Shown: one piece after another, positions 6,016-12,503 of the stretch
How positions within the stretch are numbered: the first letter of the stretch is position 1
Layout: each line of letters begins with the position of its first letter
Source: Heteronotia binoei
Taxonomy: Eukaryota
DNA: 64,000 bases
Direction of reading: 5' to 3'
Assembly (NCBI RefSeq): GCF_032191835.1
Contig: NC_083223.1
Coordinates: 255,688,001 to 255,752,000 of the forward strand
The notes under the pieces: model-generated
Told to the model about the DNA's origin: nothing
Seen by the model: the letters and a program-made list of their open reading frames with translations, nothing else
The model's database searches: none
Position numbers and translations under genes: made by a program

Positions 6016-6223
6016 GTTTCAAGTGATAGTAAAGATTCTCAGAAAGATGAGTTCTACTCCCCATTACTGTATATCCTTCAGTTTTCCTGGGGCACAAAGG
6101 AGAGAGATACACACACATAACACCCACTAAGGTTGCTAGCTGTGGGATGGGAAATTCCTGGAGATCTGGGGGTGCAGCTTGGGGGGGTCATTTGAGGAGG
6201 GGAGGAACCTCAGTGAACCTCAA

Positions 6224-6653
6224 TGTCAGGTGATGGAGACTCAAAGACTGTATTCATTTGAGACAATGTAATACTTTTATTGGAAACTCATAGCTTGAAA
6301 CAGAAATTGAGACTAATACCTTGGCAGGGGTGTTTCTGGGTCTTATGGAATCTACATCAAAGCAACTTCTAAGCAAAGACATTATTCTCAAAACAACAGG
6401 GAGTGAAGGTGCAAACTTTCACACGAGAGCCTCTGCTTATCTCCTAGCCTCTGGGAAGATGCTGGCCAGAGGCGGTATCTATTAACGGTCCCATTCCTTT
6501 GCTCCCGTCACAACCTAAACAAAGTTAACACTTCAAATGTTTCCTTTGATATGCATGGTAACTACAATCTCACAAAGGCTAGGGGTTAGTATAGAAAAGT
6601 CCATTTGGTTAGTATTTTATAATTTCAGTACGATAGAGTTACAGAGCCTGACA
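6224..6653 (-). repeat. 3' LTR of the chromovirus (430 bp)
   Basis: TG...CA termini with a 7-bp terminal inverted repeat; directly preceded on the element strand by the PPT. Confidence 0.97.
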
Positions 6654-6668
6654 TACTGCCCCCCCTAA
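6654..6668 (-). promoter_or_regulatory. Polypurine tract (plus-strand primer)
   Basis: Element strand reads TTAGGGGGGGCAGTA immediately before the 3' LTR TGT, just after the pol stop codon. Confidence 0.85.
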
Positions 6669-6670
6669 GC

Positions 6671-6847
6671 TCATGCTCGGGGTTTGTCTGGGTGCAGTAG
6701 GTAAAATCTTTTTAAAAGAAGAGGTGCCCTTAGATCAGTTGACTTAACCCACTCGTCGCAAGAGGGGGGGAAGTATTTCCATCGGACTAGGAAATGCAAT
6801 GTTCCCCGCTTGAGCTTCGCATCCAATATCTCTTGCACTTCATGATG
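6671..6847 (-). pseudogene. pol C-terminal chromodomain
   Basis: HEVQEILDAKLKRGTLHFLVRWKYFPPSCDEWVKSTDLRAPLLLKRF fits the chromo fold pattern (EV..I....LV.W..F....W). Confidence 0.9.
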
Positions 6848-6849
6848 AC

Positions 6850-7960
6850 TCTGACCCCTCATTTGAATAGGGGTGGGCGTCATAGGGCATGGATGCCAAT
6901 AAGTAGCTCCAGGATCTTTTTTCAGAAGACTGCAATGGAAAACAGGGTGAATTTTACTAAAAAAAATTGGTAATTCTAATTCAACAGTCACTGTATTTAT
7001 TATTCTTTTTATTTTGAATGGTCCCAAATACTTGTAGGCTAGCTTCCTGGATGACTGTGGTAGAGGCAGATTCTTGGTTGAGAGGAATACAGTATCTCCC
7101 ACCTTGAAGTCCCACTCGGGCGAGTGTTTTTTTGTCGAAATGTGCCTTGTAATCCTTTTTGGCTGCTTCTAGATTCTCTTGAATTAATTCCCACCCTTTG
7201 GCCAGTGATTCCCACCATTGCTGACACGATGTGGGGGAACCGGTGGTGTTAGTCACTGGTAGATTAGGAAAAGGCTTCCCTTCATATCCATTCACAATTT
7301 GGAAAGGGGTGGTCTTTGTTGAACTATGTAGGCTATTGTTGTAGCCATATTCTGCAAACGGTAATAGTTCCACCCAATTGTCTTGTTGATAGTTAATAAA
7401 ACACCTTAGGTATTGCTCGAGAAGAGAGTTCACATGTTCTGTCTGTCCGTCCGTTTGCGGGTGGTAGGCAGAACTCAGTCCCTGCTCGATCTCTGTCAAT
7501 TTTCAAAACTCCCGCCAGAAGTTGGCAACAAACTGCGGGCCGCGGTCACTAATGACCTTGTCTGGGAACGAGTTTAGTTTCACAATGTGTTGGAAGAACA
7601 GCCTCACTAGTTTTTTAGCTGTAGGGAGTTGTTTGCACGGTATGAAGTGGGCTTGTTTTGAAAACGAGTCCACCACCACTAGAATCACTGTCCATCCCTG
7701 TGATGCTGGTAGTTCGACTATAAAGTCCATAGATACCACTGACCATGGCCGTCCTGCTGTGGGGGTCGGGCGGAGTAAACCTGGGGTTTTCCCTCCCCTC
7801 CTTTTGGCCATTATGCAGGTGGGGCATGATGTTACAAATTCTGAAATATCCTTTTTCATTTGTGGCCACCAGAACTGTCAGCTCACTCGGTGGAGCATTT
7901 TCACGTAGCCAAAATGCCCGGCCAATTTGCTGCTATGACAGTGCTGCAGTACTTCCTGGC
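6850..7960 (-). pseudogene. pol: integrase (HHCC, DDE core, GPY/F), with stops and a frameshift
   Basis: HSSKLAGH...CPTC; VSMDFI, VISDRGPQF, YHPQTDGQTEHVN; KYLGPFKI, IHPVFHCSLLK. In-frame stops at ~7878 and 7503. Confidence 0.95.
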
Positions 7961-8070
7961 GGAGGCTTTTGGGAATGTATAGTTTCCCTTCCCGATACTA
8001 AAATCATCCTTCTCCCTTCACCAGCCCTTCCAGCCGCTCCTCCCCTTCTTTCTCTGTTTCTATGATTAAT

Positions 8071-8812
8071 TCATTCCTCCCCCCCCCATGGTTTGGGTTT
8101 CCCGGTCTTTTTCCCTGACCGAGTGGTCACGCCCCCAGCAACGTTAGAAGGCGGGATGAGTGAACCTATGGTCTCCTCCTGCTGGCTCTCGTGTTGTGGT
8201 AGCCGAGAGAGGGCGTCAGCTAAAAAGTTCTTTGAGTCCAGTATGCGTCGTAACGATAAATCAAATTTGGCGAAAAACCCCGCCCACCTAATCTGTTTGG
8301 CGGTTAATTTTCGGCGCGCTTTGAGCGCTTCTAGGTTTTTGTGATCTGTCCATATTTCAAATGGTACTCTGGCTCCTTCCAGCCAGGACTGCCAGATTTT
8401 TAGGGCGAATGTCACTGCGAATGCTTCTTTGTCCCAAACTGACCAATTATGTTGTTCATTGGAAAATTTTTTGGTTATATAGGCGCATGGTCTTAATCTG
8501 CCCTCTGAGTCTTTTTGCATCAATATTGCTCCGACGGCTACATTGGAAGCGTCACATTGCACCATGAAGGGTTTCAGTTCATTGGGGTGCGCTAAGATTG
8601 GTTCACTAGTGAACAGTTGTTTTAACTTTTCAAATGCTTTCTGGCACTTGGGGGACCATGCTAGTTTCACGCTTGGTTTTTTCGCCTCTGGTCCCCGCCC
8701 CTTAGTTTTTAACAAGTCTGTTAGTGGCAACATCACTTTACTAAATCCCTCTATGAACCCCCGGTAAAAATTTGCGAATCCGAGGAAAGATTGTAGCTGT
8801 CTACGTGTTCTC
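8071..8812 (-). pseudogene. pol: RT connection and RNase H
   Basis: RQLQSFLGFANFYRGFI...; VQCDASNVAVGAILMQ, WDKEAFAV, WTDHKNL, NFLADALSR. Confidence 0.95.
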
Positions 8813-8817
8813 TACGT

Positions 8818-9100
8818 GAGAGCCAGTTTGGTGTAGTGGTTAAGTGTGTGGACTCTTATCTGGGAGAACCGGGTTTGATTCCCCACTCCTCCACTTGCAC
8901 CTGCTGGAATGGCCTTGGGTCAGCCATAGCTCTGGCAGAAGTTGTCCTTGAAAGGGCAGCTGCTGGGAGAGCCCTCTCAGCCCCACCCACCTCACAGGGT
9001 GTTTGTTGTGGGGGAGGAAGGTAAAGGAGATTGTGAGCCGCTCTGAGACTCTTCGGAGTGGAGGGCGGGATATAAATCCAATATCTTCTTCTTCTTCTTC
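8818..9100 (+). mobile_element. Young tRNA-derived CORE SINE (Squam3-like) inserted in pol
   Basis: Box A TGGTGTAGTGG, box B GGTTTGATTCC, MIR-core-like CCACCTCACAGGGTG, L2-like end GAGGGCGGGATATAAAT, (CTT)n tail. Splits the pol codons E-P-P-R/T-R-R-Q. Confidence 0.92.
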
Positions 9101-9700
9101 TTCTCGGGGGTTCCCAATCTAGTACTGCTTGTATTTTCACCGGGTCCATGGCTAAGCCTTTTCCCGACACTCTGAACCCCAAGTAGTCTAGCTCTTTTTG
9201 ATGAAATTCACACTTTGACAACTTAGCATAAAGTTTGTGCTCGAGTAGGGTGTTGAGCACTTTCCTCACCAACTGGGTATGTGGGAGGGTAGATCCTTTG
9301 AGTAGATAATGATGTCATCCAGGTACACCACCACCCCTTTGTACAGGTACTTCCTCAGTACTTCATTAATAAAGTTCATAAACACTCCCAGGGCTCCCTG
9401 TAGTCCAAATGGCATTACTAGGTACTCGAATTGTCCAAGGGGGTGTTGAATGCCGTCTTCCATTCGTCCCCTTCCTTAATTCTGACTCTGAAGTAAGCGT
9501 CCCTCAGGTCTAATTTTGTAAAAATGCACCCCTCTGATACTGTGCTTAATAAGTCTTTGATTAGGGGGATGGGATAAGCTGGTCGGATGAACCCCCTGTT
9601 TAAGTTTTTGTCCAAGAATTTTCTCAGCTCCGCTTTCTCTGCCCATCCCATCGAGTACAGTTTTGCTTTGGGTAGTTCTTGCCACGGGATGAGTTCAATA
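9101..9700 (-). pseudogene. pol: reverse transcriptase, with frameshifts and an internal deletion
   Basis: FTKLDLRDAYFRVRIKEGDEWKTAF, FEYLVMPFGL, VVYLDDIIIYS (YLDD at 9325-9314), KLSKCEF...YLGF spread across three frames. Confidence 0.95.
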
Positions 9701-10272
9701 GCACAGTCTGTACTTCTGTGGGGGGGGGGAGTTCATCTGCTTCCTTCTCGCTAAACACTTTACATAAGTCTCGGTATTCTTTCGGGATGGACTGTACCTC
9801 TTCTATGGCTAAGCATAGTCTCTCATTCTGAGGGGGAGGCGAGGGGCCCCATTCTACTGACCAGTGGTGATGGATGCACTTTTTGCTGTCAAAGTCTATA
9901 GTTTGCTCTGCCCACTGGATGTTTGGTTGATGTCTCGCCAGCCACCCTACCCCCACTGCTACGTCGAAGGATGAGGAAGGGGCAATTACAAACACTTCCA
10001 TGTCCCAGTGTTCTTTGCTTCCTACCGGGAAGAACTGGGTTTCTTCTATGCATGGTTCGCCCTTCATTACTGTCCCGTCCATCTGTTCAAATTGCAACGG
10101 ATGGGGTAGGGGTGTCCTGGCTAACCCTAGTGCTTTGACTAGTCTTGGGGTGATGATATTCTCTAGTACACCCGGAGTCGATTAGCGCTTGGGTGTGCAT
10201 AAAACGCTTGGAATTTGGATTTAACAACGTTAAAGGGACTAAGAATAGTGCTCCCGATATTCTCACCTGCAA
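9700..10272 (-). pseudogene. pol: aspartic protease region, frameshifted
   Basis: ALIDSGC motif (DSG at 10179-10171), then in another frame ...SFDVAVGVGWLARHQPNIQW, typical of Ty3/Gypsy retropepsins. Confidence 0.9.
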
Positions 10273-10325: not shown

Positions 10326-12016
10326 GACAGCTCGGCTTCCTTCTCCAACTTGTTCCCCCTGGTAAAATCCTCATCAAGCACCGCCGATAGTGCGGTGCTG
10401 CCCCAACTGGGCTCCTTCGGTCTCCCCAGGGTCTTCTTTGCCTTGGGACCTGTTGTCTTCGGTGCAGGGGGGGAGGCTTGAGGTTTCTCCAGGCATTCCC
10501 TGACCAGGTGCCCCGGGTCGCCAAATCAATAGCATCTGCAGGTGGCAGACCCTTTTGCGGAGCTGCTCAGCGTTGTTGGTTTTTTGGACTCAGTCTTTGC
10601 CCCTGACCGAGCCTCACGCCCCCCTCTCACTGTCGCTGCAGGGCCACCCTATCCATATTGGTTTCCACTTCGCCTGCCAGTTGCACCCACCCCACCAGCG
10701 TGTTTGGTCGTGCCTGGTGGAGGGCCCGATCCAGGAGGGTGGATTTGAGACCGCTCTGGTAGGCCTCGATCTTCATCACTTCGTTCCATCCCCTCACCCG
10801 GGCGCAGTGGGTCTGGAATTCCGCCGTGTACTCTCTCACCGAGCAGGTTCCTTGCTTCAGGTCTTTCAGCGCGTTGAGAGCCCGAGCCTCTCGGAGGGGG
10901 TCCTTGTATTGGCGCAGCATGGCTTGTAGAAAGGCATGCACACTTCCCAGCTCCGGGCTTCTTGATTCATACAAACTCACGTACCATCTTCGGACTGCTC
11001 CCGTGAGTTTCGATCCCAAATAATCCATCCGGTTCGGTTCGTCCGGGAAACTGGCCCCCCAGTAGTGCATGTAGCTTGTGGCCTCTACTTCTTCTGGGTC
11101 CCTGTCGAACTTGAGGTCCAGCTCACGGGGTTTCCCTGGTTCTCGAAGTGCGGGACCTCCGGGAGGGGGTGCCGGTGGCGCTGGGGCTCCTCCGCCTCCG
11201 CCAGGATTCAAAGATTGCAGCGGCGCGGGTGTCCCCAATCCTCGGGGTTGCCGGCGTTCCATCTCCCATAGTGCCTGCAGGCGGTCGATCTGCCTCCCCA
11301 CCTCCCAGGCAACTGCCTGGGTGTTGCTCTGGATCTCGCTTCGGAGGTCCCTCGCCAGCCCTTTCATCTGGGTTTTCACCTTCCCAAAGATTTTCTCTTC
11401 TAGGCGGGCCGCTTCATCTTCTTTCCCCAGAGCCCCGGCTCCTTCGTCCTCGTCCTCCAAGTCGGGTAGGCGCACGCGGGATGCATCGACCTCTTCTCCC
11501 GGCTCTCCTGTCTCGGGCTTGGTGAGGAGGGTCTCATGTCGGGCTGGGGCTTCGTCCATCAAGGTGGTGGATGTCCTCAGCTTCCACTGCTGTGGGCTGA
11601 TGAATAGGGTTTGGGTGTAGGACGGGGATTCGATTCCCATAGCTCGCCTATGTCCAAGGACGTGCCCCGGAAGAGTCTTCTGTTCCCCTGGAGGTTCTCC
11701 GTTATCCGGAACTTTTTCAGGAGAGCCAGTTTGGTGTAGTGGTTAAGTGTGCGGACTCTTATCTGGGAGAACCGGGTTTGATTCCCCACTCCTCCACTTG
11801 CACCTGCTAGCATGGTCTTGGGTCAGCCATAGCTCTGGCAGAAGTTGTCCTTGAAAGGGCAGCTGCTGTGAGAGCCCTCTCCAGCCCCACCCACCTCACA
11901 GGGTGTTTGTTGTGGGGGAGGAAGGTAAAGGAGATTGTGAGCCGCTCTGAGACTCTTCGGAGTGGAGGGCGGGATATAAATCCAATATCTTCTTCATCTT
12001 CTTCTTCTTCTGCCAT
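10301..12016 (-). pseudogene. gag (PEG10/RTL-like capsid plus degenerate CCHC zinc knuckle), disrupted
   Basis: Reconstructed start M-A-E (ATG at 12016) joins K-V-P-D-N-G after removing the SINE, in frame with the 337-aa ORF 10627-11640 (KFDRDP...SKLTGAVRRW...LKQGTCSVREYTAEF). One frameshift near 10630. Knuckle C-Y-*-F-G-D-P-G-H-L-V-R-E-C at 10534-10493. Stop TAA at 10303-10301. Confidence 0.9.
11721..12010 (+). mobile_element. Young Squam3-like SINE inserted after gag codon 3
   Basis: About 6 differences from the 8818-9100 copy (~98% identical, manual count); (CTT)n tail. Confidence 0.92.
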
Positions 12017-12060: not shown

Positions 12061-12074
12061 GATTAGTCTAAAAA
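12061..12074 (-). promoter_or_regulatory. Non-tRNA primer-binding site (self-priming type)
   Basis: Element strand TTTTTAGACTAATC follows the 5' LTR and lacks the TGG start of a tRNA PBS; 10 of 11 nt are complementary to LTR sequence ATTAGTCTCAA (12167-12157). Confidence 0.75.
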
Positions 12075-12503
12075 TGTCAGGCGATGGAGACTCAAGACTG
12101 TATTCATTTGAGACAATGTAATACTTTTATTGGAAACTCATAGCTTGAAACAGAAATTGAGACTAATACCTTGGCAGGGGTGTTTCTGGGTTTTATGGAA
12201 TCTACATCAAAGCAACTTCTAAACAAAGACATTATTCTCAAGACAACAGGGAGTGAAGGTGCAAACTTTCACACGAGAGCCTCTGCTTATCTCCTAGCCT
12301 CTGGGAAGATGCTGGCCAGCAGCGGTATCTATTAACGGTCACATTCCTTTGCTCCCTTCACAACCTAAACAAAGTTAACATTTCAAACGTTTCCTTTGAT
12401 ATGCATGGCAACTACTATCTCACAAAGGCTAGGGGTTAGTATAGAAAAGTCCATTTGGTTAGTATTTTATAATTTCAGTACGATAGAGTTACAGAGCCTG
12501 ACA
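12075..12503 (-). repeat. 5' LTR of the chromovirus (429 bp)
   Basis: Direct repeat of 6224-6653; manual comparison gives 12 substitutions and 1 indel. On the minus strand: TATA-like CATAAAA (12197-12191) and AATAAA (12131-12126). Confidence 0.97.

What the first reader, a model, noticed from the sequence alone, without database searches (positions are those of the whole stretch)
12061..12197. tRNA-independent, self-priming architecture readable in the chromovirus 5' LTR
The sequence after the 5' LTR (element strand TTTTTAGACTAATC) is not a tRNA-type PBS. It is complementary at 10 of 11 positions to ATTAGTCTCAA inside the LTR (12167-12157). That 11-mer begins exactly 30 nt downstream of the start of a TATA-like CATAAAA (12197) and upstream of AATAAA, so it is where the transcript should start. 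Established: fission-yeast Tf1 primes reverse transcription from the first 11 nt of its own RNA after cleavage, and this has been proposed for vertebrate Tf1/sushi elements. Inference: this lizard family self-primes. The single C:T mismatch is shared by both LTRs, so it is either a PBS decay mutation or a tolerated feature.
Basis: partly seen in the sequence, partly recalled or inferred. Interest (0 to 1): 0.7.

Follow-up and report, generated by a model that had tools for sequence, protein, structure and literature searches.

The report
Self-priming chromovirus retrotransposon, covarying primer
This decayed jumping gene has no tRNA docking site; in related copies the 11 bases after its left repeat pair with 11 bases inside that repeat and change together with them, so the group likely starts copying itself with the front end of its own RNA, a trick shown in yeast Tf1 and already proposed for vertebrate relatives.

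Summary
The 10/11 match is real but weak alone (8 of 300 shuffles reach it). Other copies settle it. In 15 of 20 own-family copies the match is 11/11, 3 have one G-U pair, and 2 (this one included) have a private mismatch. Sister subfamilies carry four other PBS sequences, each matched by its own LTR: 98% of 253 cells pair and 5 of 11 pairs change on both sides. A distant family (about 39% identity) has a 10-bp version behind a canonical TATATA. Two corrections: the mismatch is likely decay (predicted pairing probability 0.05 versus 0.90-0.96), and CATAAAA is private to this LTR (1 of 20), although an A/T core at -28 to -26 is kept (24 of 24). The RNA start was not mapped. This is the Tf1/sushi mechanism, already proposed in print for vertebrates; the scan found similar layouts in other genomes. 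One small extra lead: a conserved C just after the PBS could be a footprint of the primer's cap.

The parts
12075..12503 (-). 5' LTR, 429 nt, TG...CA
   Evidence: 417 of 429 identical to the 3' LTR
12191..12197 (-). TATA-like element at -30 to -24; this spelling is private to this LTR, the A/T core is conserved
   Evidence: 1 of 20 copies; -28 to -26 are A/T in 24 of 24
12157..12167 (-). Predicted self-primer: predicted first 11 nt of the RNA (start of R)
   Evidence: pyrimidine at -1 and A at +1 in 24 of 24; start not mapped by RNA
12126..12131 (-). AATAAA poly(A) signal
   Evidence: an A[AT]TAAA lies 36-43 nt behind the start of the paired stretch in 13 of 13 sister elements with a called LTR pair
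12087..12139 (-). Predicted R-U5 stem (12139-12130 with 12095-12087), partly covering the poly(A) signal
   Evidence: 82.6% of 230 cells paired, 4 of 10 pairs change on both sides; helix was picked from the same alignment and is absent from the RNAalifold structure
12073..12074 (-). 2-nt spacer between LTR end and PBS
   Evidence: the duplex starts at the third base after the LTR end in 29 of 29 elements with a called LTR end
12062..12072 (-). PBS complementary to the LTR 11-mer; private mismatch at 12070 in this copy
12061..12061 (-). Conserved C right after the PBS, with no genomic partner at -1 (candidate cap footprint)
   Evidence: 20 of 20 own-family copies; 20 of 23 alignment rows; 21 of 21 family-B junctions
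11725..11995 (.). SINE-like repeat inserted just behind the gag ATG (12016-12014)
   Evidence: (family D1)
10627..11742 (-). gag remnant (Retrotrans_gag, Ty3_capsid)
9105..10100 (-). PR-RT remnant, in several frames
8822..9092 (.). Second SINE-like insertion, between the RT and RNase H pieces
8071..8811 (-). RNase H remnant
   Evidence: nearest solved relatives are Ty3 RT/Gag-Pol chains
6671..7985 (-). Integrase remnant with SH3_Tf2-1 and chromodomain
6654..6666 (-). Polypurine tract before the 3' LTR
6224..6653 (-). 3' LTR, 430 nt; the 5-nt flanks of the element match at 4 of 5 positions (decayed target-site duplication)

Best explanation
The locus is a broken chromodomain-bearing Ty3/gypsy retrotransposon whose PBS pairs with an 11-mer in its own LTR, and the lineage likely primes reverse transcription with the first 11 nt of its own RNA. 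Shown here: the anatomy, the lack of a tRNA-type PBS in this family, the fixed geometry (2-nt spacer, then 11 bp; partner 91-104 nt before the LTR end), and two-sided covariation. Inferred from promoter anatomy: transcription starts at 12167. Inferred from Tf1: the RNA 5' end folds onto the PBS, RNase H cuts after base 11, and the freed 3' end primes minus-strand DNA through U5. Also inferred: copying of the primer into the new PBS, together with selection, keeps the two sites matched. This copy is likely dead, and its mismatch likely arose at or after insertion.
For: Own family: 15 of 20 junctions are 11/11, 3 have one G-U, 2 have one mismatch (only 40 of 768 candidates were scored, best first). 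LTR ends called without regard to pairing: 29 of 60 fetched elements gave a usable LTR pair and end. Of these, 11 of 13 sister elements have 11 bp and 15 of 16 family-B elements have 10 bp, all starting at base 3 after the LTR. Alignment of 23 rows: 98.0% of 253 cells paired, 5 of 11 pairs changed on both sides, 0 of 500 shuffles reach the covariation score, slid registers give at most 51%. RNAalifold finds this helix alone. PBS types follow the clades of a tree built on U3 only, so at least 4 separate two-sided events are needed. Predicted pairing probability is 0.90-0.96 in 23 fully matched copies. Pyrimidine at -1, A at +1 and A/T at -28 to -26 in 24 of 24; TATATA at -31 in family B. Tf1 mechanism: PMC7175516 (passage). 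Vertebrate Tf1/sushi proposal: PMC6317226, PMC4600332 and bioRxiv 2022.12.06.519325 (passages).
Against: No RNA start was seen at the predicted base: reads come from a relative, lie on both strands and often run off the LTR ends into unlike flanks. The third duplex of the Tf1 'pretzel' has no support: the best LTR-leader helix does not covary (257 of 500 shuffles reach it), and LTR-leader duplex energy beat 95% of shuffles in only 2 of 23 copies. Alignment rows were admitted with at most 2 mismatches, which inflates the paired percentage; one search is the blind count. 31 of 60 fetched elements gave no usable LTR pair or end. Cleavage and priming cannot be shown from sequence.
Confidence: 0.88

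Rival explanations
1. [quoted passage not shown]
For: The 11-mer is in both LTRs, so covariation alone cannot name the source. The start is unmapped.
Against: The duplex's outer edge sits exactly on a pyrimidine-purine start with an A/T core 26-28 nt upstream in 24 of 24 elements and behind TATATA in family B, which fits a 5' end and needs no second cut. Departures in 16 re-fetched copies were not shared between a copy's two LTRs where both were found, so they give no footprint for this route. Pairing in trans between two 5' ends is not excluded.
Confidence: 0.07
2. A host tRNA or tRNA fragment primes, and the LTR-PBS helix is a regulatory or packaging structure.
For: Two sister PBS types contain TGG at bases 4-6 after the LTR. 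A true host tRNA set was not obtained: the search returned tRNA-like tandem repeats.
Against: The window family, two other sister types and family B have no TGG there. Six PBS types would each need a different tRNA while each matches its own LTR. The longest complement in 101 tRNA-like sequences is 6 nt (unrepresentative set).
Confidence: 0.03
3. Chance complementarity in an A/T-rich LTR.
For: For this copy alone 8 of 300 shuffles do as well.
Against: Same register and position in 29 of 29 blind cases, and two-sided changes at 5 of 11 pairs.
Confidence: 0.01

Closest known systems
Tf1/Tf2 (Schizosaccharomyces pombe), Tj1, Tosmo1-3
   Same: Chromodomain integrase with a Tf2-type SH3 domain; 11-nt LTR sequence complementary to the PBS; no tRNA PBS (PMC7175516, PMC4600332, bioRxiv 2022.12.06.519325; passages).
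   Different: A 2-nt spacer precedes the PBS here, whereas a passage in PMC11042837 suggests the Tf1 PBS follows the LTR directly (my reading). The LTR-leader duplex of the pretzel was not supported here. Family B Gag has a CCHC motif and pol in the -1 frame, unlike fission-yeast elements.
[quoted passage not shown] 2001
   Same: Vertebrate-sized host genome, chromovirus domain order, predicted self-primer. The group is named in PMC6317226 (passages). Butler 2001 was seen only as a citation.
   Different: No named member was compared here. Whether two-sided covariation across subfamilies within one genome is already in print was not found in the listings of searches; Butler 2001 and the Levin papers could not be read.
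Plant and fungal Tcn1-type chromoviruses
   Same: Predicted self-priming without a tRNA PBS (PMC6317226, passages). Metagenome relatives show a similar layout, many with a 2-nt spacer.
   Different: Different hosts; the RNase H stretch is only about 31-44% identical to the metagenome relatives.

Membership tests
Chromovirus (Ty3/gypsy) | LTRs TG...CA, order gag-PR-RT-RH-IN | tested here: met
Chromovirus (Ty3/gypsy) | Chromodomain at the integrase C-terminus | tested here: met
   PF00385 E 2.8e-07 and PF24626 E 1.4e-16
Tf1/sushi group | No tRNA-complementary PBS | tested here: inconclusive
   No TGG in the window family, which excludes a mature tRNA 3' end; internal tRNA fragments were checked only against an unrepresentative set
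Tf1/sushi group | PBS complementary to about 11 nt in the 5' LTR | tested here: met
Tf1/sushi group | That 11-mer is the 5' end of the RNA | tested here: inconclusive
   Promoter anatomy fits; RNA reads show no start
Tf1/sushi group | Three-duplex 'pretzel' structure | tested here: inconclusive
   Central duplex strong; R-U5 stem moderate; LTR-leader duplex unsupported
Tf1/sushi group | RNase H cleavage after base 11 and priming from the product | not testable with these tools
   needs biochemistry
Tf1/sushi group | RT-IN phylogeny inside the clade with named members | not tested
An RNase H tree joins the window clade to family B among unnamed metagenome relatives, with a long-branch warning
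tRNA-primed Ty3/gypsy | PBS starting with TGG within a few bases of the LTR end | tested here: not met
   0 of 20 own-family junctions

The most novel reading that the evidence does not exclude
The primer's 5' cap is part of the mechanism. The base right after the PBS is C in both lineages of this genome, while the LTR base at -1 is a pyrimidine and cannot pair with it. That C would sit opposite the cap G, either pairing with it or matching a C that RT adds when it copies the capped primer before the second strand transfer. Counts: 20 of 20 own-family copies, 20 of 23 alignment rows and 21 of 21 family-B junctions; 8 of 12 distinct-looking metagenome families picked by eye. The next base is also C in 16 of 23 rows, and shared descent is not excluded.
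Probability: 0.3. Interest if true: 0.55.

Novelty: new member of a known kind. Interest (0 to 1): 0.3.

Why it matters
Self-priming has been shown by experiment in yeast Tf1; the papers read here call it 'implicated' or 'described' for vertebrates. This genome holds thousands of candidate chromovirus matches and at least six matched primer/PBS types, which is strong comparative support. It also gives exact predicted start sites and a predicted 10-11-nt capped RNA to look for. It does not change the known picture.

Tried and rejected
RNA mapping of the start: 4 runs (at most 3 samples, 2 studies; 5-15% divergent reads) laid on the window LTR gave no start or end pile-up. On a family-B 5' LTR the only pile-up was 8 molecules at 6136, not at the predicted 6267; depth is higher over R-U5 than over part of U3, but that stretch is repetitive and reads run off both LTR ends. 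Inconclusive. Host tRNA set: the Rfam search returned tRNA-like arrays of about 137-nt period, not a usable set. Pretzel third duplex: unsupported. R-U5 self-folding reached z <= -2 in 6 of 20 window-clade copies and was weaker than shuffles in 3 of 3 family-B copies. 'Tolerated mismatch': rejected. More families: PF00385 and PF16297 searches appear to return mostly family B again; 5 of 11 DUF4939 loci showed the family-B junction and 6 showed none; 2 of 20 loci showed the own-family junction in the gag-anchored scan. Metagenome scan: 51 of 80 loci had enough upstream DNA; 25 hits from 6332 CA sites against 13 from 5987 in a reversed control, so up to half may be chance. Rows left out of alignment A1: L086 (deletion), family B (not alignable), most near-identical own-family copies, and L072, whose hit was an unrelated hairpin. 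Four primary Tf1 papers or reviews were not held. No paper on a cap footprint at the PBS appeared in the listings of searches; that is not proof of absence. Supplements were not opened; bioRxiv ones are closed, and Figure 4D of 2022.12.06.519325 could show the base after each PBS.

Full report
The element. The finding lies at the 5' end of a minus-strand LTR retrotransposon spanning 12503-6224. The LTRs are 429 and 430 nt and 417 of 429 positions match. Pfam finds gag, RT, RNase H, integrase, a Tf2-type SH3 domain and a chromodomain in that order, so it is a chromovirus. The reading frames are in pieces and two SINE-like repeats interrupt it.

The observation. All coordinates hold. After the LTR's CA there are 2 nt, then 11 nt (12072-12062) that complement 12167-12157 at 10 positions. 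For this copy alone that is only mildly unusual: 8 of 300 LTR shuffles do as well.

Own family. A DNA search scored the best 40 of 768 candidates and gave 30 loci, of which 20 are 5' LTR junctions and 10 are 3' or solo LTRs. Of the 20, 15 pair at 11 of 11, 3 have one G-U pair and 2 have one mismatch, the window copy among them. No other copy has the window's mismatch. With the RNA assumed to begin at the 11-mer, the predicted pairing probability is 0.05 for the window copy and 0.90-0.96 for 23 fully matched copies. In 16 re-fetched copies no departure was shared by both LTRs where both were found. The mismatch is best read as decay. CATAAAA is also private: 1 of 20, and the window's 3' LTR has CATAAGA.

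Covariation. I fetched 60 further elements: 20 from a Pfam SH3 search (family B, about 39% identical in the integrase tail) and 40 sisters at 78-86%. LTR pairs were called without regard to pairing; 39 gave a pair and 29 of these a canonical end. In all 29 the best complement starts at the third base after the LTR. It is 11 bp in 11 of 13 sisters and 10 bp in 15 of 16 family-B copies. The LTR-side sequences differ (ATTAGTCTCAA, ATCAGTCTCAA, ATCAAACTCAA, ATCAGTTCCAA, ATCACTTCCAA; GTGGAAGCAA in family B), and each is matched by its own PBS. In an alignment of 23 window-clade rows 98.0% of 253 cells pair, 5 of 11 pairs have two-sided changes, none of 500 shuffles reaches the covariation score, and slid registers fall to 14-51%. 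Rows were admitted with at most 2 mismatches, so one search is the unbiased count. RNAalifold and a blind column scan both put this helix first. A tree on U3 alone groups the PBS types by clade, which needs at least four separate two-sided events.

Where the RNA starts. In 24 of 24 window-clade elements the 11-mer begins with A after a pyrimidine, and positions -28 to -26 are A or T. Family B has TATATA at -31. This fits a polymerase II start at the first paired base (established promoter anatomy, recalled). Public RNA reads did not test it: they come from a relative, show no pile-up at the predicted base, and often run off the LTR ends.

Other structure. Tf1 needs three duplexes (bioRxiv 2022.12.06.519325, passages). 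An R-U5 stem has moderate support here (82.6% paired, 4 of 10 pairs two-sided), but I picked it from the same alignment. The best LTR-leader helix does not covary.

Mechanism. In Tf1 the first 11 bases pair with the PBS and RNase H cuts between bases 11 and 12 to make the primer (PMC7175516, passage). About half of Tf1 cDNA keeps a copied PBS at its 3' end, and the RT adds untemplated bases (PMC11042837, passages). Tf2 regulates mobility by choosing its start site (PMC5341516, passages). I infer the same route here. Copying of the primer into the new PBS would help explain the tight covariation. The constant 2-nt spacer suggests that integrase trims two bases (inference).

Rivals. A tRNA primer is unlikely: the window family has no TGG, and six PBS types each match their own LTR. 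Two sister types do contain TGG, and no true host tRNA set was obtained. A primer from the 3' R copy or a second RNA is not excluded by covariation, but the promoter geometry favours the 5' end.

What is known. Self-primers are described for Tf1/sushi elements of yeast and vertebrates (PMC6317226, passages) and 'implicated' from fungi to vertebrates (PMC4600332, passages). Butler et al. 2001 was seen only as a citation. PMC3601003, PMC2864245 and PMC7472051 (passages) added nothing specific. The scan has unchecked notes of similar layouts in other genomes. This is a new member of a known kind; formal placement with named members was not tested.

A small lead. The base after the duplex is C in 20 of 20 own-family copies, 20 of 23 alignment rows and 21 of 21 family-B junctions, where the next base varies. 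The LTR base at -1 is a pyrimidine, so it has no genomic partner. Among metagenome relatives, 8 of 12 distinct-looking families that I picked by eye also have C, 4 do not, and that scan has a high chance rate (25 hits against 13 in the control). It may mark the primer's cap G. The next column is also C in 16 of 23 rows, and lineages are not independent, so I give it 0.3.

Verdict. Real, well supported by covariation, mechanism inferred from Tf1 (0.88), already proposed for this group. Interest 0.3.

Noticed in passing
L061-L080 and hit lists: A second, young chromovirus family (family B) has many long open pol frames, LTR pairs up to 100% identical, a 228-237 nt R-U5 with internal repeats and no A[AT]TAAA in the LTR; its poly(A) signal is unexplained.
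   Followed up: partly
L031-L060, e.g. L042 130-1981: Tandem arrays of tRNA-like units with a period of about 137 nt and anticodons such as GGT and GGG on several chromosomes; they look like a SINE-derived satellite and crowd out real tRNA genes in the search.
   Followed up: no
window 11725-11995 and 8822-9092: Two copies of one SINE-like repeat sit inside the element, one directly behind the gag start codon; three more copies lie elsewhere in the window (D1).
   Followed up: partly
window 12139-12087 (minus strand): The predicted R-U5 stem pairs the first bases of AATAAA and might hide the 5' poly(A) signal.
   Followed up: partly
L106: Two 5'-type LTR-PBS junctions in one 9.9-kb stretch with a 1484-nt near-identical repeat: a tandem element.
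   Followed up: no
window 6666-6654 and L061-L120: A fixed 4-5 nt stretch separates the G-run of the polypurine tract from the 3' LTR in both lineages.
   Followed up: no
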